Shown: in pieces, positions 33,070-56,966 of the stretch
Numbering within the stretch: the first letter of the stretch is position 1
How the letters are laid out: every line of letters starts with the position of its first letter
Program-made: the position numbers and the translations under genes
The notes under the pieces: model-generated
What the model was told of the DNA's origin: nothing
The model's input: only the letters and a program-made list of their open reading frames with translations
The model's database searches: none
Origin: Candidatus Poribacteria bacterium
GTDB taxonomy: Bacteria > Poribacteria > WGA-4E > PCPOR2b
DNA: 64,000 nucleotides
Direction of reading: 5' to 3'
Assembly: GCA_965215015.1 (NCBI GenBank)
Contig: OZ244042.1
Coordinates: forward strand, 4,768,001-4,832,000

Positions 33070-33131
33070 ATTCTTTAGAAGCCGAATTCAAATCTATACA
33101 ATTGTCAAAGATCAGAAGCTGTTACGCTTAG

Positions 33132-33205
33132 TGGAGATGAGCGGAGTCGAACCGCTGGCCTTCTGCGTGCAAAGCAGATGCTCTCCCAAACTGAGCTACA
33201 CCCCC
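33132..33205 (-). tRNA. tRNA-Ala(TGC), CCA not fully encoded
   Basis: GGGGGTGTAGCTCAG...TTTGCAC...GGTTCGACTCC...CTCCA cloverleaf in the ITS. Confidence 0.95.
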
Positions 33206-33214
33206 ACAATGAAA

Positions 33215-33291
33215 TGGTGGGCTTATCTGGAATCGAACCAGAGACCTCGCGCTTATCAGGCGCGCGCTCTAACCGCCTGAGCTATAAGCCC
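33215..33291 (-). tRNA. tRNA-Ile(GAT)
   Basis: GGGCTTATAGCTCAGG...CTGATAA...GGTTCGATTCC...CCCACCA. Confidence 0.96.
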
Positions 33292-51100: not shown

Positions 51101-51754
51101 TCAGAATGTGTCAATCCCCTCAAACTCAGGAGGATCGGGCGGCTCCACCTTCGCATTACGACCAAATCTAAAGGTCACCACGACCGAGGTACCGTTCAGA
51201 TCTGAGTTATCGATTCCTGCGATGCCAACGCCACGGATATAGCGGTAACTCCCTCCAAAATAGATCTGGAGATAAGTTTTCATATTCCATACTATATTGA
51301 GTTGCGGCTGAATAATAAAAAAAGTATCGTCGGGACCACCCAATCTACCATATTCATCATAGGATCCATCAAACCGCTGATATCGATCTGTCAACCCACC
51401 AAACCCGATCAAAGTCTGGGCAGAGAGATGGACATCTCGACTGGGAGCGATAATATATTCCAGCTCCAGTCCACTGTAGGCAAACTCAAATTCACGTTCA
51501 GGATCAGACGATTTTATGTCTCTGAGCAAGCCGTAAAATCCGCCCCCAATTGCATACCTATGTTTATAAATCCAGCCCCCTCGACCACCAACTATCAAGC
51601 CGAATACATTGTTAATCCTTGTAACCTTTAATACCGGTCCCCCAAAACCACCGCTTTTGCTAGGCTTCTCAGCCTTCGTTTCTTCCAAATCCTCTTCTGC
51701 CCAAAGAGAGGCTGCCAACATAAGTAAAAACAACAAAAGCGTCAATTTTTTCAC
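51101..51754 (-). CDS. Putative outer membrane beta-barrel protein
   Basis: Signal peptide MKKLTLLLFLL, GGFGGP, alternating aromatic beta-strands, FRFG end of barrel. Confidence 0.65.
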   Translation of the reverse strand: MKKLTLLLFLLMLAASLWAEEDLEETKAEKPSKSGGFGGPVLKVTRINNVFGLIVGGRGGWIYKHRYAIGGGFYGLLRDIKSSDPEREFEFAYSGLELEYIIAPSRDVHLSAQTLIGFGGLTDRYQRFDGSYDEYGRLGGPDDTFFIIQPQLNIVWNMKTYLQIYFGGSYRYIRGVGIAGIDNSDLNGTSVVVTFRFGRNAKVEPPDPPEFEGIDTF

Positions 51755-51782
51755 CAAATTCTCCCTTAAATTTGAAAGGTTA

Positions 51783-52228
51783 TTATACACTTTCCGCGTT
51801 CACCGAATCTTCAAGCTGTGTCATCAATTTCTGTGACAGCCGGGCTAGGATAGCGAGGCGAAAGTTCGCATCCCCATCCACGCCAAACTGCTCGAAAACC
51901 TGTTCGATTCCGCGCTCGATGTTGTTGACTTGCCCCTCATTGGATCAAGGTGTCCTGCTGCCTCGCGGAGCCGTGCTTCAATGTCGATATCGCTTCCCTC
52001 CCATAGGGCATAGGCATCGTTGTAACGACGGTAAATAACAATAGAGCGTCCCTCTAACATCATCAATGCAGACTCAAACGATTGGACAGACTCATCAGCT
52101 TCATTCCGGAATGTCTCCGCGGCAGCATCAAGTGCGTAACGGAGTAAAGCCTTTGAGTTTTTCAGATTCACGCTTGCTTCCCCGACAATACCGAGCAGAC
52201 CGACGGTTTTGATCAGTTTCACTGTCAT
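51783..52228 (-). pseudogene. Relic of a large SspC-like ATPase (internal fragment fused out of frame to a C-terminal end)
   Basis: LIKTVGLL...IYRRYNDAYALWEGSDIDIE resembles, from recall, the large ATPases of DUF4007/PAPS-reductase clusters; after about 51940 another frame gives a helical tail EGQVNNIERG...LAILARLSQKLM..ESV*. Confidence 0.55.
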
Positions 52229-52343
52229 GGTTATTCGGGACTGAGGTGGGGCTTAGGGTTCTTAGCAGGGGAAGGGGGTACAGCATACGCCGTATGCTTA
52301 ATACCTTAAAGACTCTCACGGAATACCTTTGCGATTCTGCCGA

Positions 52344-53231
52344 TTACAATTCACGGTAATCCCCTTGAAATACCTCTCTGATGTGCCAGTTTATAAAATT
52401 TTCGTGCGGATAATAGGACTGCCTTTGAGGGAAGTTGATCCTTTCACCGTGAAAATTCATAAGCCACTCTTCAAAACCCACTGAACCATTGGCCTCATCT
52501 GATACCATTATTTCTAGTTGCTCGGACAGCGTAAACGCCCCACGGTCAAATAGCTTATGGTGTAACGAACATAGAGCCAATCCATTTACTTCTGTATCGG
52601 GACCATCTGCCTGACGCCATTTGATATGAGATGCTTCTAGCGCAATAGGCAAGGTGCCCAATCTCACATCAAAGCCACAGACAGCGCATTTATATTCGTA
52701 GGCTTTCAGGATATTCGCCCGGAAGTTGGAGTTGGGCCTTCGCCACCTGGAGATCTGAGGAGGAAACCCAATCCCAACAGCCTGTAAAATGTCCTCATGA
52801 AGCGAAGGAGGAAAATGACCATCTAGTAAGCTATGGATTATTTCAAAAGACAATTTGGAATCGTTTTGAAGTTGATAAGCAATATCTTCGAGAAAACCTC
52901 CAGAAGTGTTGTAACGGACCAGATCGCTTCTTAGAGCGTCTCCACTGGCTGTTTGTCGAATTCTGTCGGCATCAGATATCTCCCAAATTCCGTCATTTTG
53001 GAGCCGCCAAAACGGATAATGTGTTCTATCATTGGCTTGTCTGGGACCAAACTCCCTCAGTAAATTTCCAAGGTTGTCATCTATTTCAGAATATGGCAGG
53101 AAGCGGTTCCCATCTCGTAGTAACTTTCCAATGGCATACAGAACCAGCAGAGGCTTGTGAGGTGCTCTCCTGTCAGCATTTTTCCACACTTTTAATTGTT
53201 CAAATTTATGAGCAATTGCTTCTCTGTTCAT
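52344..53231 (-). CDS. SBD-HNH endonuclease (phosphorothioated-DNA-binding restriction type)
   Basis: N-terminal RAPHKPLLVL and YPFWRLQNDG sulfur-binding-domain motifs; C-terminal CAVCG..LEASHI..NGLALCSLHHKLFD HNH. Confidence 0.85.
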   Translation of the reverse strand: MNREAIAHKFEQLKVWKNADRRAPHKPLLVLYAIGKLLRDGNRFLPYSEIDDNLGNLLREFGPRQANDRTHYPFWRLQNDGIWEISDADRIRQTASGDALRSDLVRYNTSGGFLEDIAYQLQNDSKLSFEIIHSLLDGHFPPSLHEDILQAVGIGFPPQISRWRRPNSNFRANILKAYEYKCAVCGFDVRLGTLPIALEASHIKWRQADGPDTEVNGLALCSLHHKLFDRGAFTLSEQLEIMVSDEANGSVGFEEWLMNFHGERINFPQRQSYYPHENFINWHIREVFQGDYREL

Positions 53232-53258
53232 TTTTCATGGCCTGCTATTTGAGAGAAT

Positions 53259-53369
53259 CTATGATAGGCAAGGCAGGATTTTCGGCACTTTGTCCCGCAT
53301 GTAAATCGCGAGTGCTGAGCTATCTTTGCCACCGGAAAGGCCGAGGATATGACGCATTTTTTGTTCCAT
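53259..53369 (-). pseudogene. Truncated second copy of the PAPS-reductase (SspD-like) gene
   Basis: Reads MEQKMRHILGLSGGKDSSALAIYMRDKVPKILPCLS*; first 29 codons nearly identical in protein to the 56966 ORF; about 75-bp leader also conserved. Confidence 0.88.
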
Positions 53370-53444
53370 GGTATCCCCTAACTCTCTGTTTAAGATATGC
53401 CCCCCTGCTGTTGGCGGATTCAATTAATTGTATGAGGGGGGTGC

Positions 53445-53815
53445 TTGACGTACTCCCACACCTAAAGGGTTGGGATTCTTCACTGTCCCTTTAGGATTAG
53501 TTTAGATATATGATTGATGAATCTAAACTTGCGGATAGACTTGTCGTAGATAACATAGTAGCAACGCTGGAGCGCAATGCAATGATTCCATACCTCCGCG
53601 TGTCCCTCTATCGTCTTGTGTAACTCACGGTTGCCGTGATGGCTATACATTTTGAAATTGTAGGACTTCATAGGATTTCGCTCTCTGGAACGGACTGTTA
53701 GGGCGATCCCTAACAACGGCTAACAATCAGACAGTTTCAACCATTGTTTGACTGAATACCGTTTGCCAATCTGTATCCCTGTCTTAAAAGACGGGGGTTA
53801 GATCGGAAGATTCTG
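53445..53815 (-). mobile_element. tnpB: Non-autonomous, internally deleted IS200/IS605-family element with a tnpB 5' fragment
   Basis: Left end follows TTTAT and has hairpin CCCCGTCTTTTAAGACAGGG; ORF MKSYNFKMY...EVWNHCIALQRCYY is TnpB N-terminus-like; right end GAATCCCAACCCTTTAGGTGTGGGAGTACGTCAA; no target duplication. Confidence 0.8.
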
Positions 53816-53843
53816 ATAAAATTTCCGTTTTCTTTTTTCCCAT

Positions 53844-54332
53844 CTACCGATGAAATTCCAAAATCCAAGATTCCAATAGGCCAGAAATCCTATCTGCTTC
53901 TTCTTGAACATCCTGAAGTTTACTGTATGAATTAGGGCGTGTTTGTGAAACAATGCGAATCTTTAGATTATGTTCATATAACCAATTACTTAATCGTAAT
54001 TGTACTAAATTTTCTACTGCCTTGCGGTATTCTTGGCTATCAATCTGAAATATCTCTTTCGGTGTGAATTTTATTGCTGCAAAATCAACCTTTTCTAGTG
54101 GTACTTCCTCATAGTAATCAATATTGGAAAGACGTTGAAGATAAGTATTATTATTTCCATCAGATAAATGTTGGGCGAGTCTACCGAGTGCCCCTGTACG
54201 TCCTCTTGTCTGTCCAACGTAGAGAGTTGCCAGATTGTCAACTACCCCATAAATCGTATACAAAAAACCGTTTTTTTTCGCTATTGTTACATCAAAAACT
54301 GTTGCCTGTCCAATTTCTACAGAATGTTTCAT
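53844..54332 (-). CDS. GIY-YIG-like putative nuclease
   Basis: LYTIY...LYVGQT...GRLAQHL...E pattern; GGAGG RBS; overlaps the upstream ATPase gene end. Confidence 0.6.
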   Translation of the reverse strand: MKHSVEIGQATVFDVTIAKKNGFLYTIYGVVDNLATLYVGQTRGRTGALGRLAQHLSDGNNNTYLQRLSNIDYYEEVPLEKVDFAAIKFTPKEIFQIDSQEYRKAVENLVQLRLSNWLYEHNLKIRIVSQTRPNSYSKLQDVQEEADRISGLLESWILEFHR

Positions 54333-56088
54333 ACCTCCGCAAAAAATCAGTTAGATTAAGTCTTCGGATTACATCTGAAAGAGTTCCGCCAACTCTCTCC
54401 CGGTATTCCGTCATAATCTCTTCAATTTCATCATCATCTTGTTCTGATTTATAAACGAGATCATATTCACCTCTAGTGATCGAATAGAAGAGGAGGTCCA
54501 TTACCTTCAGCAGATTACTATTGTCGTGGGCAGTGTCTAAAATATCCCGACAAAATCTGTGGGATTTATTGACTCTTACAATCAGTCCTTCCCTAGGATC
54601 ATGGGCTCTTTCCCATAGTTGATTATTGTCTAGTGTATCCACATATAGAACACGCTGCCCTGTTTTTTTGATATGTTGTTCATCTTCAGGCTTTATCGGT
54701 TTCGTGCTAACAGCTTTATTCCGGCGTTTCTCTAACTCCTTTCTTTCCTCTGCAGGAGCAACACTCTCATCAAACCTATCTTCATCGGCTTGGAGCTGCG
54801 AGATCCGATTTAACTGCTGATTAGCGGTATCATGAGGGCCTTGCGTGAGTGACTCGACCGTAAGGCGGTGCGCGGTGCGCCAAGCAATCCGACTCTTTTT
54901 TATCGCCTCCTGAACCTCTGGTTTAAGCTGGTCTTGAGCAATTTCCGAAAGATTTACACGATTCTTCGTAACATTTATATTTAAAATATCATCAGCGTCA
55001 CTATCGATTAACAGCCGGCCACGAAAAGCACATAAATCCTGATCTTGTGGCACGAAAGCTAACCCATCTGCCCACGAAATCAATCTCCAGTTACGATAAA
55101 TGTAGAAACCATAATTTCCTGATCCAATCAGATAACGGTCCCGGCAATCCTTCCGGCTCATTAAGCCTTTACGTTCTACGCTCGGCGGATGCGGAAGTTG
55201 CGTTATTTCAACTCGTGCCCATATACTTGCGGTAGAATCAAGTTGAATTGCCTGTAATTTTGTAATCCATTTTGGGTGAAGCCCATCCCAATTGTGCTCG
55301 TTCAAATCACCATTATCAACGTCAATTTCATCTATAAACAAAGGATCTATCGGTGGGACATCATAATCATCAATTTTCAGCGAGAGGCGTTTGGCTCCTT
55401 CAACTATGCCTTTCAAATAGTAGTAGTAAATTACACCGGCTTTAGCCTTTAATCCGTGTATAATTTCAGAGGTAGGCGGTAGGGATTCATGAAATAGCTT
55501 GGTGATACGAATTAAAGTACCAGATTTCCCTTGAGTACAAGCGTCCAATTCATTGAGATCTTCGTCTGTGGGCTTGGTTAAATCGTAAACATATTTTCCC
55601 TTCTCAACAATTAAATCTTGATCTAACACGACTTTGCGAACATCATTTGAACCATTGTCAGAACGTGATACTATTTCTAACTGCTTTCCTAGTGATGAGG
55701 CAGCTGATTTCAAGCCTATACCGAACTTTGAAAGCGTTTTCGCATGATATCGTTGTGCTGAAGAACCTAAGGTAAGGGCATTATCTAACCCCTGCTCATC
55801 CATACCGCAGCCGTTATCTACAATAACCAGTGACTTTAAAATCGCTCGCGGCCTTCCACGTTGTCGTTTTGTTCGTTCTTCACTCTCTGTCTTCGCTTTG
55901 ATTACAACGGAGGTAGCGCTTGCTGACACTGAATTATCCACGAGATCTAAAATAGCAGATATCGGATCGTATCCTATGCGCCCCAACGCTTGAAATACAC
56001 GTCCTGCATCCCATGCCCCTTCTTTTATACGCATCTTCTCCCCCGGTTTTTGTAAGGTGGTAGCTATCGCCTCTATTTTCCAAGGCAC
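54292..56088 (-). CDS. GHKL/MORC-like ATPase (HATPase_c_3); start may be 56034
   Basis: ILDLVDNSVSA, DNGCGM, SKFGIGLKSA, GTLIRI boxes; S5-like GFYIYRNWRLI..FRGRL. Confidence 0.85.
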   Translation of the reverse strand: MPWKIEAIATTLQKPGEKMRIKEGAWDAGRVFQALGRIGYDPISAILDLVDNSVSASATSVVIKAKTESEERTKRQRGRPRAILKSLVIVDNGCGMDEQGLDNALTLGSSAQRYHAKTLSKFGIGLKSAASSLGKQLEIVSRSDNGSNDVRKVVLDQDLIVEKGKYVYDLTKPTDEDLNELDACTQGKSGTLIRITKLFHESLPPTSEIIHGLKAKAGVIYYYYLKGIVEGAKRLSLKIDDYDVPPIDPLFIDEIDVDNGDLNEHNWDGLHPKWITKLQAIQLDSTASIWARVEITQLPHPPSVERKGLMSRKDCRDRYLIGSGNYGFYIYRNWRLISWADGLAFVPQDQDLCAFRGRLLIDSDADDILNINVTKNRVNLSEIAQDQLKPEVQEAIKKSRIAWRTAHRLTVESLTQGPHDTANQQLNRISQLQADEDRFDESVAPAEERKELEKRRNKAVSTKPIKPEDEQHIKKTGQRVLYVDTLDNNQLWERAHDPREGLIVRVNKSHRFCRDILDTAHDNSNLLKVMDLLFYSITRGEYDLVYKSEQDDDEIEEIMTEYRERVGGTLSDVIRRLNLTDFLRRYETFCRNWTGNSF

Positions 56089-56147
56089 CTATTGCTACAT
56101 TACATAGAGATTTCCTAGTTTCCTTATGAATAAGATTTTTCCTAGTC

Positions 56148-56966
56148 TCACAAATCACAAATCAAGCATGGCTTCTCATCGTCCTCATCATCAAGGACAT
56201 CGCCGAAGATTTCAATTAACGGGCGATTCGGTTGGGACTTTTTTTCCTGTACCATTGCCTTCGCATGGTTTTCCTTAATCTGCCGTTCCCGCTCAGGGGC
56301 CGCCAGCTCTTCTAAACTCTCACCTTGGCTCCAAGTATACCTCTCGCCTGTTTTCGAGTTAAATTTCTCATAACCCTTGGCGAGTTCAAATAGCTCAGGG
56401 TGATTCTTCTTTAATCCAATCCACTCCGCCTTGCGTTGGTAGAAACAGAAGTAGCACCCGGAGCGCGTTCGCCATTTATAATACTCGGGTAAACCGAGGC
56501 CACTCTCCTCCAAAATCCGATAGACATCCCTCTCAGTGATCCCGGCCTCTTTGAACGGATATTTGGGTTCGATATTTCGTGCCTCAACGTTCTTCAGGGG
56601 CTTATAGCCAACGCGGTCCTCGTCGGCACGGATCGCGATGTAATTATAAGCCTTATCCTCACCGACAAATTCCTCGAAGGGTCTAATCTTCAACTGTGGT
56701 GTACACCAACGCACCTGCGATGAGGGCAGTAATCCACCATTTATAGCAAGCCAATGGTCAAAATCACGCTCGGTGTTTAACCGTTCAATTTTTTTGCCCA
56801 AAAAGGCTTCTAATCGATCGAGAAATTCATACGTCTCCGGCAATTCCTTTCCCGTATCGCAGAAGGCGTATTCCATCTCCGGCACGGTGTCCCGCATGTA
56901 GATAGCGAGTGCCGAACTATCTTTGCCCCCGGAAAGGCCGAGGATATGGCGCATTTTTTGTCCCAT
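56148..56966 (-). CDS. PAPS-reductase-family protein, SspD-like (DNA phosphorothioation type)
   Basis: PP-loop SGGKDS, DTGKELPETY, RWCT, RSGCYFCFYQ, C-terminal CLIC; 272 aa, shorter than DndC; defence context, no cys genes. Confidence 0.78.
   Translation of the reverse strand: MGQKMRHILGLSGGKDSSALAIYMRDTVPEMEYAFCDTGKELPETYEFLDRLEAFLGKKIERLNTERDFDHWLAINGGLLPSSQVRWCTPQLKIRPFEEFVGEDKAYNYIAIRADEDRVGYKPLKNVEARNIEPKYPFKEAGITERDVYRILEESGLGLPEYYKWRTRSGCYFCFYQRKAEWIGLKKNHPELFELAKGYEKFNSKTGERYTWSQGESLEELAAPERERQIKENHAKAMVQEKKSQPNRPLIEIFGDVLDDEDDEKPCLICDL

What the first reader, a model, noticed from the sequence alone, without database searches (positions are those of the whole stretch)
53844..56966. 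Three-gene module of SspD-like PAPS reductase, MORC/GHKL ATPase and GIY-YIG-like nuclease: candidate undescribed defence system
Seen: three co-oriented, tightly packed genes (the last two overlap by 41 bp), the ATPase/nuclease part visibly AT-richer than the core genes. The first has SGGKDS and Cys clusters, the second all GHKL boxes, the third a GIY-YIG-like pattern. Known: Ssp phosphorothioation uses SspA desulfurase, SspB (DUF4007), SspC ATPase and SspD with SspE or SspFGH effectors; prokaryotic MORCs partner restriction-type nucleases. Inference: no sspA, sspB or intact sspC is in the window, so the module is either a new effector pair wired to PT modification or a stand-alone modifier-ATPase-nuclease system.
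Basis: partly seen in the sequence, partly recalled or inferred. Interest (0 to 1): 0.8.

Follow-up and report, generated by a model that had tools for sequence, protein, structure and literature searches.

The report
ATPase-nuclease pair tied to DNA phosphorothioation
A MORC-like ATPase gene and a small GIY-YIG nuclease gene form a conserved two-gene cassette that sits beside the genes that write sulfur marks into DNA, so it is probably an undescribed restriction partner of that marking system, although in this genome the marking genes have partly decayed.

Summary
The conserved unit is not the triad but the ATPase-nuclease pair. In 22 further loci that hold both genes, the nuclease gene starts within about 60 bp of the ATPase stop; 14 of the 23 loci, window included, share an ATGA overlap.

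The pair always lies among phosphorothioate (PT) writer genes. All 17 of 176 genomes of the window's phylum that carry it have it in an ssp locus, usually sspB-sspC-sspD-GHKL-GIY. In distant metagenome relatives it lies beside sspCD, or beside dndACDE/pbeAC or dndB. The slot downstream of sspD holds SspE, PbeAC, an SBD-HNH enzyme or other cassettes in sister genomes.

In this genome sspB is absent and sspC is a relic. A second sspD is cut to about 30 codons, and a PT-binding SBD-HNH nuclease sits next door. The SspD sequences do not cluster by cassette.

I found no PADLOC model and no paper describing the pair. The best reading is a new PT-coupled restriction effector, here surviving in a decayed island. 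Function is inferred from context only.

The parts
56148..56966 (-). sspD: PAPS-reductase/PP-loop sulfur-transfer enzyme of the Ssp phosphorothioation writer (272 aa), intact
   Evidence: PADLOC SspD E 1.6e-115, full length. 86-94% identical to the SspD of genus-mates, with pairwise dN/dS 0.02-0.08.
54292..56034 (-). MORC/MutL-type GHKL ATPase with S5 transducer and a conserved helical C-terminal domain. 580 aa from the ATG at 56034; the ORF is open up to the GTG at 56088. A +1 T changes its last codons.
   Evidence: Pfam HATPase_c_3 E 1.1e-23. Motifs conserved in 21 relatives. AF2 model pLDDT 79.8. Best Foldseek matches are MORC2 (9cdj_A, E 1.2e-14), SMCHD1, MORC3/4 and Hsp90. The frameshift is shown.
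53844..54332 (-). Small GIY-YIG-family nuclease (162 aa), obligate partner of the ATPase gene
   Evidence: 66 of 88 family members hit Pfam GIY-YIG. Y25, Y38, R51, H55 and E107 are conserved. The top row of 48,161 chains compared by fold is the I-TevI catalytic domain, Z 4.7 (weak). The gene always follows the ATPase gene.
53715..53830 (.). About 100-bp dispersed repeat just downstream of the nuclease gene
   Evidence: 25 matches in the window's own genome. Depth piles up with many loose ends in contigs.
53277..53369 (-). Relic of a second sspD copy: ribosome-binding region plus about the first 30 codons
   Evidence: SspD model positions 1-26, E 2.8e-8. tblastn gives 87% identity to the window's own SspD over 31 aa. 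The DNA alignment breaks at about codon 30.
52344..53231 (-). SBD-HNH 'phosphorothioated DNA-binding restriction endonuclease' (295 aa), intact
   Evidence: NCBIfam NF045808 at 348 bits against a cut-off of 180. Its N-terminal half matches the sulfur-binding domain of ScoMcrA (5zmm, E 8e-14) and its C-terminal half matches the HNH of TagI.
51810..52228 (-). Relic of sspC: residues about 425-512 joined to about 1116-1160 of a roughly 1160-aa protein
   Evidence: PADLOC SspC E 3e-18 on model positions 413-493 of 1054. tblastn with a full-length relative confirms it. It is the only SspC match in the genome.

Best explanation
The finding is one end of a decayed Ssp phosphorothioation island. The new element in it is a two-gene cassette, a MORC/MutL-type GHKL ATPase followed by a small GIY-YIG nuclease. 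The cassette occupies the effector slot downstream of sspD.

I propose, by inference, that the two proteins form one machine. The ATPase dimer would clamp and scan DNA and read the PT state of the DNA. The nuclease, which has no DNA-binding domain of its own, would make the cut in foreign DNA. This would make the pair a restriction partner of PT writers, both Ssp and Dnd, like SspE, SspFGH, DndFGH or PbeABCD.

Several genomes have lost sspB and sspC yet keep the pair intact. That favours an SspE-like mode, licensed by self PT marks and harmless without them, over an SspFGH-like mode that attacks any unmarked DNA.

In this genome Ssp-type PT writing is most likely off: there is no sspB, sspC is a relic, and there are no dnd genes. 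The pair is therefore probably idle here or working in a reduced way. The neighbouring SBD-HNH enzyme can still act on PT-DNA.
For: What the genes are is shown. SspD is established. The ATPase is a GHKL+S5 fold closest to MORC2, SMCHD1, MORC3 and MORC4. The small protein belongs to the GIY-YIG family and keeps its catalytic Tyr, Tyr, Arg, His and Glu.

The obligate pairing is shown.
- In 9 of 9 metagenome loci with room upstream, a GHKL homologue (42-61% identical) directly precedes the nuclease gene.
- In 23 of 23 pair-bearing loci the nuclease gene begins within about 60 bp of the ATPase stop. In 14 of them the two genes share ATGA.
- None of 68 loci with more distant GHKL proteins (L009-L076) holds the nuclease family.

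The PT linkage is shown.
- 17 of 176 genomes of the phylum carry the ATPase, and all 17 have it in an ssp locus.
- sspD lies under 400 bp upstream in 13 of them. It lies 4.9 and 14.4 kb upstream in 2. In one, sspC lies directly upstream. In one, sspD lies directly downstream.
- L006 and L007 read sspB-sspC-sspD-GHKL(-GIY).
- Distant relatives read sspC-sspD-GHKL-GIY (L081), pbeA-pbeC-x-GHKL-GIY next to dndA-E-D-C (L079, and L078 downstream), and dndB next to GHKL-GIY (L086).

The effector slot is shown. I sampled 20 GHKL-negative genomes of my own choosing, mostly few-contig assemblies. Directly downstream of sspD they hold SspE (1), PbeA-PbeC (2), SBD-HNH (5), an NsnA-like/REase fusion plus an approximately 820-838-aa protein (3) and other cassettes (9). 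Short 3' pieces of sspD sit in front of displaced GHKL and SBD-HNH cassettes.

There is a precedent. The nearest plasmid-borne ATPases (23% identity, 92% coverage) sit in dcm-vsr-GHKL-HNH-helicase operons. This is the R-M context described for prokaryotic MORCs and paraMORCs (PMC2292703, passages).

There is room in the field. 83.9% of 2,678 sspBCD modules have no known restriction partner (PMC8092258, passages).

Selection is shown. Pairwise dN/dS is 0.13-0.20 for the ATPase and 0.09-0.24 for the nuclease among six genus-mates.
Against: - No functional datum exists. All of the reading rests on gene context.
- No PT-reading domain was found. A profile comparison of the ATPase with the SBD-HNH gave 0.5% probability, and the C-terminal domain has no named family.
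- The fold evidence for GIY-YIG is weak: model pLDDT 67.5, Z 4.7 and no Foldseek match.
- The residue four positions before the invariant Asn is Asp in 18, Glu in 2 and Asn in 1 of 21 sequences. That this is the GHKL catalytic-base position is recalled, not tested. It may mean slow ATP hydrolysis.
- Four of six genus-mates (G000, G046, G053, G056) keep sspD-GHKL-GIY intact with no sspB and no intact sspC. A strictly PT-dependent effector would be useless there.
- The cassette itself is broken in two genomes that still have sspC. The ATPase is split in G106, and only the last 23 codons of the nuclease gene remain in G035.
- Defence genes cluster in islands anyway, and the 17 genomes are kin, not independent samples.
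- Outside this phylum only four loci had readable context (three arrangements, since L078 and L079 repeat each other).
Confidence: 0.6

Rival explanations
1. Stand-alone compact system. SspD, the ATPase and the nuclease (perhaps with the SBD-HNH) work without SspB and SspC, as a three-gene writer-ATPase-nuclease PT system in the manner of TdpABC. SspD with a housekeeping cysteine desulfurase would write PT, and the ATPase would take over DNA targeting.
For: - sspD stays intact, directly upstream of the pair, in four genus-mates that lack sspB and an intact sspC.
- The sspC remnants differ between genomes: residues 425-512 plus 1116-1160 in G000, 565-1160 in G046, and nothing in G053 and G056. 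This suggests repeated loss of sspBC while sspD was retained.
- SspD dN/dS is 0.04-0.07 between the sspBC-less genomes, as low as for the flanking housekeeping genes.
- When the locus is split (G061), sspD stays with the pair while sspBC lie 735 kb away.
- A one-enzyme PT writer exists in Tdp (PMC12914056, passages).
- Cysteine desulfurases are present in the genome.
Against: - SspD next to the pair is not a distinct lineage. The label needs 13 changes for 16 rows on the SspD tree, no better than shuffled labels.
- SspD is 86-89% identical to the window's in GHKL-negative genus-mates, against 87-94% in GHKL-positive ones.
- At least 10 of 17 pair-bearing genomes keep a full sspC close by.
- sspBCD is treated as the minimal writer, and the SspC ATPase as essential (PMC12914056, passages).
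- In other lineages the pair sits with dnd genes and no sspD.
- Low dN/dS over dS of 0.5-1.0 mostly reflects time before a recent loss.
Confidence: 0.1
2. Hitch-hiker. The ATPase-nuclease pair is an independent defence or selfish cassette, a MORC-type nuclease machine that acts regardless of PT. It merely accumulates in the same defence-island hot spot as the PT genes.
For: - The slot downstream of sspD is a cassette hot spot holding unrelated genes, including a pAgo next to the SBD-HNH in L114.
- The pair persists where the writers have decayed.
- No PT-reading domain was found.
- Related GHKL ATPases work with quite different modification systems, such as dcm.
Against: - The pair is in an ssp locus in 17 of 17 genomes of the phylum.
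- It is also linked to the unrelated Dnd writers in distant relatives with 33-41% (nuclease) and 42-61% (ATPase) identity.
- In 13 of 17 it is co-oriented and under 400 bp from the sspD stop.
- It was not found in viral contigs or in 401 sampled Planctomycetota genomes. It is therefore not a widely roaming cassette.
Confidence: 0.15
3. Accessory to modification or repair rather than restriction. A MutL-like ATPase with a nicking nuclease would help load, proof-read or repair PT sites, for example at oxidised PT or at nicks left by the writer.
For: - The closest housekeeping analogue, MutL, couples a GHKL+S5 ATPase to a nick. The MutL-like lysine motif is conserved.
- The Ssp pathway involves a nickase (SspB is called a nickase in PMC12914056, passages).
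- The cassette is co-transcribed with the writer genes in layout.
Against: - Only 17 of 123 SspD-positive genomes of the phylum have the pair, so it is dispensable for writing.
- It alternates in the same slot with known restriction effectors: SspE and PbeAC.
- Prokaryotic MORC-type ATPases with nuclease partners are read as restriction components (PMC2292703, passages).
Confidence: 0.1

Closest known systems
SspABCD-SspE (PT-sensing Ssp defence)
   Same: Same writer family. SspD is full length here, and sspB-sspC-sspD precede the pair in relatives. The pair sits in the slot where SspE sits in a sister genome (L112). Tolerance of writer loss fits SspE's lack of toxicity without PT (PMC13251355, passages).
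   Different: SspE is one DUF262 GTPase-HNH protein. Here there are two proteins, a GHKL ATPase and a GIY-YIG nuclease, with no PADLOC SspE hit. Here the writer is incomplete.
SspFGH / DndFGH / PbeABCD (multi-protein PT-coupled restriction modules)
   Same: These are separate ATPase and nuclease or translocase subunits encoded beside PT writers. The pair co-occurs with PbeA-PbeC in L004, L079 and L099.
   Different: SspF carries a Walker A motif and SspH is FtsK-like (PMC8092258, passages). PbeA is an HKD nuclease-helicase and PbeC an ABC ATPase (PMC10853773, passages). None of these is GHKL or GIY-YIG. SspFGH is toxic without PT, whereas this pair survives writer loss.
Prokaryotic MORC/paraMORC ATPases of restriction-modification operons (Iyer, Abhiman & Aravind 2008)
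   Same: GHKL+S5 ATPase with a conserved C-terminal extension, encoded next to a nuclease and a DNA-modification gene. The nearest plasmid relatives lie in dcm-vsr-GHKL-HNH-helicase operons.
   Different: There the mark is cytosine methylation, the nuclease is HNH or REase-fold, and an SF2 helicase is usual. Here the mark is PT, the nuclease is GIY-YIG, and there is no helicase in the cassette. The 2008 text contains none of the words PAPS, dnd, phosphorothioat* or GIY-YIG.
URI (GIY-YIG) nucleases noted in Dnd neighbourhoods (Krishnan et al., NAR 2024, PMC10853773)
   Same: GIY-YIG-superfamily nucleases encoded at the edges of PT writer clusters (passages).
   Different: The main text holds none of the words GHKL, MORC, HATPase, MutL or Hsp90. 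An ATPase partner and an Ssp linkage are not described there. I did not open its supplementary dataset, which may list such neighbourhoods.
TdpABC (compact PT system; An et al., Nat Chem Biol 2025)
   Same: A three-gene layout of one writer enzyme plus two restriction proteins. TdpC alone makes PT (PMC12914056, passages).
   Different: The paper is not held, so no sequence or domain comparison was possible. From recall only, TdpA is a hexameric translocase, not a GHKL dimer.
MzaB of the MZA system; MutL
   Same: GHKL ATPase domain. MzaB is the best PADLOC and NCBIfam hit.
   Different: 62 bits against a cut-off of 850 for MzaB, and 16 bits against 180 for MutL. The other Mza genes are not present here.

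Membership tests
Ssp phosphorothioation system (writer sspBCD, with sspA/iscS) | SspD (PAPS-reductase-like PP-loop enzyme) | tested here: met
   PADLOC SspD E 1.6e-115, full length.
Ssp phosphorothioation system (writer sspBCD, with sspA/iscS) | SspB (DUF4007) | tested here: not met
   No match in the whole 98%-complete single-contig genome. The same model finds SspB in G050 and G061.
Ssp phosphorothioation system (writer sspBCD, with sspA/iscS) | Intact SspC ATPase | tested here: not met
   Only model positions 412-492 of 1054 match, at window 51845-52228.
Ssp phosphorothioation system (writer sspBCD, with sspA/iscS) | Known effector (SspE or SspFGH) in the locus | tested here: not met
   No SspE, SspF, SspG or SspH hit for any ORF scanned at 51101-56966. 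Whether PADLOC 2.0.0 holds SspFGH models was not checked.
Ssp phosphorothioation system (writer sspBCD, with sspA/iscS) | PT (CpsC) present in the DNA | not testable with these tools
   Needs LC-MS or PT-seq.
MORC/paraMORC-type GHKL ATPases | GHKL ATP-binding motifs | tested here: met
   N34, D73-G75-G77, G105-G107 and G172-T173 are invariant in 21 sequences. HATPase_c_3 at 84 bits against a cut-off of 25.
MORC/paraMORC-type GHKL ATPases | S5-fold transducer domain following the GHKL domain | tested here: met
   Foldseek aligns about 455 columns to the MORC2, MORC3, MORC4 and SMCHD1 ATPase modules, E 1e-14 to 1e-13. K357 is invariant in a 'DVTKxR' motif.
MORC/paraMORC-type GHKL ATPases | Membership of one named family (MORC proper or paraMORC1-5) | not tested
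   No models of those families were on hand.
GIY-YIG (URI) nuclease superfamily | Sequence match to the family model | tested here: inconclusive
   P0003 alone gets 14.6 bits against a cut-off of 22.6. Of 88 family members, 66 match at E<=0.1, best 7.6e-6. A family profile against PDB sequences gave nothing.
GIY-YIG (URI) nuclease superfamily | Catalytic Tyr (GIY), Tyr (YIG), Arg and Glu | tested here: met
   Y25, Y38, G40, R51 and H55 are at least 90% conserved and E107 is invariant across 88 sequences down to 18% identity. Assigning these residues to the catalytic roles is by recalled motif order.
GIY-YIG (URI) nuclease superfamily | Beta-beta-alpha-beta-alpha fold | tested here: inconclusive
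   Model pLDDT 67.5. I-TevI catalytic domain ranks 1 of 48,161 chains but at Z 4.7 (rmsd 3.6, 89 aligned). UvrC ranks 11 at Z 3.5. Foldseek found nothing at E<=0.001.
MZA system (MzaB) | Score above the curated cut-off | tested here: not met
   62.2 bits against a cut-off of 850.
PT-dependent SBD-HNH restriction endonuclease (the neighbour at 52344-53231) | Sulfur-binding domain plus HNH, above the curated cut-off | tested here: met
   NF045808 at 348 bits against a cut-off of 180. SBD of ScoMcrA E 8e-14.
TdpABC | Homology of the three proteins to TdpC, TdpA and TdpB | not testable with these tools
   The paper and its sequences are not held.

The most novel reading that the evidence does not exclude
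sspD-GHKL-GIY is a self-sufficient, Tdp-like compact phosphorothioation system. After sspB and sspC are lost, SspD together with a housekeeping cysteine desulfurase still writes PT. The MORC-like clamp replaces SspB and SspC in bringing SspD to DNA, and the same clamp directs the GIY-YIG nuclease against unmarked DNA. Repeated loss of sspBC with strict retention of sspD next to the pair would then be streamlining, not decay.
Probability: 0.1. Interest if true: 0.85.

Novelty: new variant of a known kind. Interest (0 to 1): 0.6.

Why it matters
Most sspBCD clusters have no known restriction partner: 83.9% of 2,678 in PMC8092258. How PT marks are read remains poorly understood. This pair is a concrete, small and clonable candidate, about 2.2 kb, for a further class of PT-coupled effector. 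It appears beside both the single-strand (Ssp) and the double-strand (Dnd) writers, which share no target motif. If it reads PT, it does so without the known sulfur-binding domain.

It would also extend the old prediction that bacterial MORC-type ATPases are restriction subunits that respond to epigenetic marks, from base methylation to a backbone mark.

In this phylum of sponge symbionts, 123 of 176 genomes carry SspD, and the slot after sspD holds many different cassettes. That makes it a natural library for finding further PT readers.

Tried and rejected
It was never queued because the queue was full, so there is no result either way.
- Foldseek of the nuclease model against PDB gave nothing at E<=0.001. 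The family profile against PDB sequences gave nothing.
- Looking for a sulfur-binding domain in the ATPase by profile-profile comparison with the SBD-HNH gave 0.5% probability.
A 9-row subset, A4, worked.
- The viral contigs scan found no relative.
- A search of 401 sampled Planctomycetota genomes, prompted by a Gemmataceae family member, found 0 matches.
- No RNA holder was listed among the sequencing runs, so expression is untested.
- Promoter and terminator scans were uninformative: 18 promoter-like sites found against 11.7 expected, and 7 terminator-like sites against 6.1.
- My guess that the 78-aa ORF at 53480-53716 is a transposase fragment got no Pfam support.
- Earlier-findings look-ups by place and by sequence returned nothing.
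- I considered BREX type 4 (BrxP). SspD hits BrxP only at E 6e-10 over the PAPS domain, and the only BrxC-like hit is the SspC relic, so I rejected it.
- I considered that the 41-bp overlap is an assembly error. It is not supported as such, because a contig from another study shows the same letters.

Full report
WHAT IS THERE

The window holds three co-oriented minus-strand ORFs at 56148-56966, 54292-56088 and 53844-54332. The stretch 53500-56000 has GC 0.38-0.44, against about 0.45-0.57 around it.

ORF1 is a full-length SspD (PADLOC PDLC02782, E 1.6e-115).

ORF2 carries Pfam HATPase_c_3 (E 1.1e-23). Its only defence-library hit is MzaB, at 62 bits against a cut-off of 850. In an alignment of 21 relatives all four GHKL boxes are invariant, and so is a lysine in a MutL-like 'DVTKxR' motif. 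An AlphaFold model (pLDDT 79.8) matches the ATPase modules of MORC2 (9cdj_A, E 1.2e-14), SMCHD1, MORC4, MORC3 and then Hsp90. Relatives begin at the ATG at 56034, which gives 580 aa here.

ORF3 alone barely touches Pfam GIY-YIG (E 0.04). A profile search of 1.84 billion proteins found 134 family representatives of about 150-170 aa. Across 88 of them, Y25, Y38, G40, T42, G47, R51, H55 and R103 are at least 90% conserved and E107 is invariant. Of the 88, 66 hit GIY-YIG and 18 hit GIY_YIG_2. The model is mediocre (pLDDT 67.5). Foldseek finds nothing. An all-against-all fold comparison puts the I-TevI catalytic domain first of 48,161 chains, but only at Z 4.7. I accept 'GIY-YIG family' on sequence grounds and call the fold evidence weak.

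The 41-bp overlap is real but local. One extra T in a T-run replaces the last three codons with a 15-residue tail. The five genus-mates compared there, and 14 of 23 pair-bearing loci in all, share ATGA between the ATPase stop and the nuclease start. A contig from another study shows the same letters as the window.

THE NEIGHBOURS CHANGE THE PICTURE

Downstream of the nuclease gene, in order, lie:
- a roughly 100-bp repeat with 25 copies in the genome;
- a 78-aa ORF of no family;
- the ribosome-binding region and about the first 30 codons of a second sspD;
- an intact 295-aa 'phosphorothioated DNA-binding restriction endonuclease' (NF045808, 348 bits against a cut-off of 180), whose N-terminal half matches the sulfur-binding domain of ScoMcrA (E 8e-14);
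- a 127-aa ORF that is a fused remnant of sspC.

The whole genome is one contig, 98% complete. It has no SspB, no other SspC and no DndC. It does have cysteine desulfurases. So the Ssp writer is broken here. Papers in the field treat sspBCD as the minimal writer and the SspC ATPase as essential (PMC12914056, passages).

THE CONSERVED UNIT IS THE PAIR

The closest relatives are Candidatus Poribacteria genomes, at 69-83% identity for the ATPase. In L004, L005, L007 and L008 the nuclease gene follows the ATPase gene. None of 68 loci with more distant GHKL proteins holds the nuclease family.

A metagenome scan with the nuclease family gave 12 loci, one of them a spurious 44-residue match. Of the other 11, nine have sequence upstream, and all nine have an ATPase homologue (42-61% identical) directly before the nuclease gene. 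The remaining two start too close to the match to tell.

THE PAIR LIVES WITH PT WRITERS

L006 and L007 read sspB-sspC-sspD-GHKL(-GIY). In 176 genomes of the phylum, SspD is in 123, SspC in 115 (fragments included) and the ATPase in 17. All 17 have the ATPase in an ssp locus:
- sspD lies less than 400 bp upstream in 13;
- sspD lies 4.9 kb (G072) and 14.4 kb (G075) upstream in two, separated by insertions;
- sspC lies directly upstream, with sspD missing, in G099;
- G035 is a rearranged copy with only the last 23 codons of the nuclease gene left.

The distant metagenome relatives are more telling because their writers differ. L081 reads sspC-sspD-GHKL-GIY. L079 reads pbeA-pbeC-x-GHKL-GIY, back to back with dndA-dndE-dndD-dndC, and L078 repeats its downstream half. 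L086 has dndB divergent from GHKL-GIY. The other loci end inside the ATPase gene.

THE SLOT AFTER sspD IS AN EFFECTOR SLOT

I picked 20 GHKL-negative genomes, mostly few-contig assemblies, so not a random sample. The genes directly downstream of sspD were:
- SspE in 1 (L112);
- PbeA-PbeC in 2 (L117; L118 by tblastn only);
- the SBD-HNH enzyme in 5 (twice in tandem in L103);
- an NsnA-like/REase fusion plus an approximately 820-838-aa protein in 3;
- other cassettes in 9, several with DndB-like proteins and weak GHKL hits.

Short 3' pieces of sspD stand in front of displaced cassettes: before GHKL and before the SBD-HNH in L008, between the two SBD-HNH copies in L103, and before the SBD-HNH in L091. 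This fits cassette exchange by recombination at the sspD 3' end. That is my inference.

IS SspD PART OF THE NEW THING?

On a tree of 36 SspD sequences, the label 'next to GHKL' needs 13 changes for 16 rows. The shuffled mean is 12.0, and 414 of 500 shuffles do as well. SspD follows the genus, not the cassette. The triad is therefore not a co-evolving unit.

In the window's genus the locus order is sspD-X-sspB-sspC. Of six genus-mates with the pair, four (G000, G046, G053, G056) lack sspB and an intact sspC, with different remnants in each. All four keep sspD-GHKL-GIY-SBD-HNH intact. Pairwise dN/dS is 0.02-0.08 for SspD, 0.13-0.20 for the ATPase, 0.09-0.24 for the nuclease and 0.10-0.21 for the SBD-HNH. 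The two flanking housekeeping genes give 0.05-0.11 and 0.01-0.05. With dS of 0.3-1.0, these values mostly reflect time before the losses, so they do not settle the matter.

The remnants fit an ancestral composite island of roughly sspD-GHKL-GIY-(pbeAC)-sspD2-SBD-HNH-sspB-sspC that was whittled down differently in each line. This too is inference.

HOW IT MOST LIKELY WORKS

The parts and their linkage are shown. The rest is inferred.
- The ATPase is a dimerising DNA clamp, by analogy with MORC2 on DNA and MutL.
- It recruits the domain-poor nuclease. The coupled ATGA junction suggests they are made together.
- The complex uses the PT state to spare self DNA and nick or cut foreign DNA.

The nearest plasmid ATPases sit in dcm-vsr-GHKL-HNH-helicase operons. 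That is the R-M setting Iyer et al. described for MORCs and paraMORCs (PMC2292703, passages).

Survival of the pair without writers argues against an 'attack everything unmarked' mode such as that of SspFGH, which is toxic without PT (PMC8092258, passages). It argues for licensing by PT, as in SspE (PMC13251355, passages).

Three points weigh against over-reading this. No PT-reading domain was found. The residue four positions before the invariant Asn is Asp in 18 of 21 sequences, Glu in 2 and Asn in 1, and its role as catalytic base is recalled, not tested. The pair is itself broken in G106 and G035.

IS IT KNOWN?

PADLOC 2.0.0 has no model for either protein. Full-text searches returned nothing for SspD + phosphorothioate + GHKL, for sspBCD + MORC, or for phosphorothioat* + HATPase + PAPS reductase. 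GHKL + GIY-YIG + anti-phage returned one 2012 review, seen as a listing only.

The 2024 reappraisal of Dnd systems mentions URI/GIY-YIG nucleases at the edges of Dnd neighbourhoods. Its main text has none of the words GHKL, MORC, HATPase, MutL or Hsp90 (PMC10853773, passages). I did not open its supplement or that of PMC12914056. The TdpABC paper is not held.

Earlier notes of this scan, which are AI notes and not independent evidence, describe the same cassette beside PT writers in another genome (e1-3152038) and related GHKL cassettes in Ssp loci (e1-1153972, e1-2113067).

VERDICT

The finding is a new variant of a known kind: a PT-coupled restriction module with a MORC-type ATPase and a GIY-YIG nuclease. 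In this genome it survives in a decayed Ssp island next to an SBD-HNH enzyme. Function is untested.

Noticed in passing
window 52344-53231 (-); L103, L108, L109, L111, L114: An SBD-HNH 'PT-DNA-binding restriction endonuclease' lies directly (25-50 bp) downstream of sspD, co-oriented, in 5 of 20 sampled genomes that also keep sspC. It is in tandem duplicate in L103. An enzyme usually read as a type IV nuclease against PT-DNA seems here to be a regular partner of a PT writer.
   Followed up: partly
window 53715-53830: A roughly 100-bp repeat has 25 matches (71-100% identity) scattered over the window's own genome. Contigs of several runs pile up and break here. It may be a small mobile or recombination-prone element at the cassette border.
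   Followed up: partly
phylum survey (G000-G179): Ssp genes are unusually common in this phylum. SspD is in 123 and SspC in 115 of 176 genomes. Some genomes have two ssp loci a few kb apart (for example G096 and G104).
   Followed up: partly
L101 3971-6427, L110 4193-6706, L116 872-2806, L101 1613-3958, L107 4807-6975: Other cassettes in the slot after sspD encode large proteins with weak GHKL hits (23.9, 21.8 and 29.4 bits) and DndB-like proteins. They have no PADLOC system name. GHKL ATPases may be a recurrent theme of Ssp-linked effectors.
   Followed up: partly
L101-L107, L004 (the window's genus): In this genus the ssp locus is permuted to sspD-[variable cassette of 4-8 kb]-sspB-sspC, whereas other genera have sspB-sspC-sspD-[cassette].
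   Followed up: partly
G061 (L005): The ssp locus is split. sspD-GHKL-GIY sit at one place, and sspB-sspC lie 735 kb away with no sspD beside them.
   Followed up: partly
window 54333-54345: One extra T in a T-run shifts the last codons of the ATPase gene. This adds a 15-residue tail and produces the 41-bp overlap. The same letters are seen in a contig from another study.
   Followed up: yes
L114 1811-3826: A prokaryotic Argonaute (PADLOC pAgo, E 7e-203) follows the SBD-HNH gene downstream of sspD in one genome.
   Followed up: no
window 53480-53716 (-): A 78-aa ORF between the repeat and the sspD relic has no Pfam or PADLOC family.
   Followed up: partly
window 33131-33291 (-): tRNA-Ala(TGC) and tRNA-Ile(GAT) lie side by side, the usual spacer pair of an rRNA operon.
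   Followed up: no
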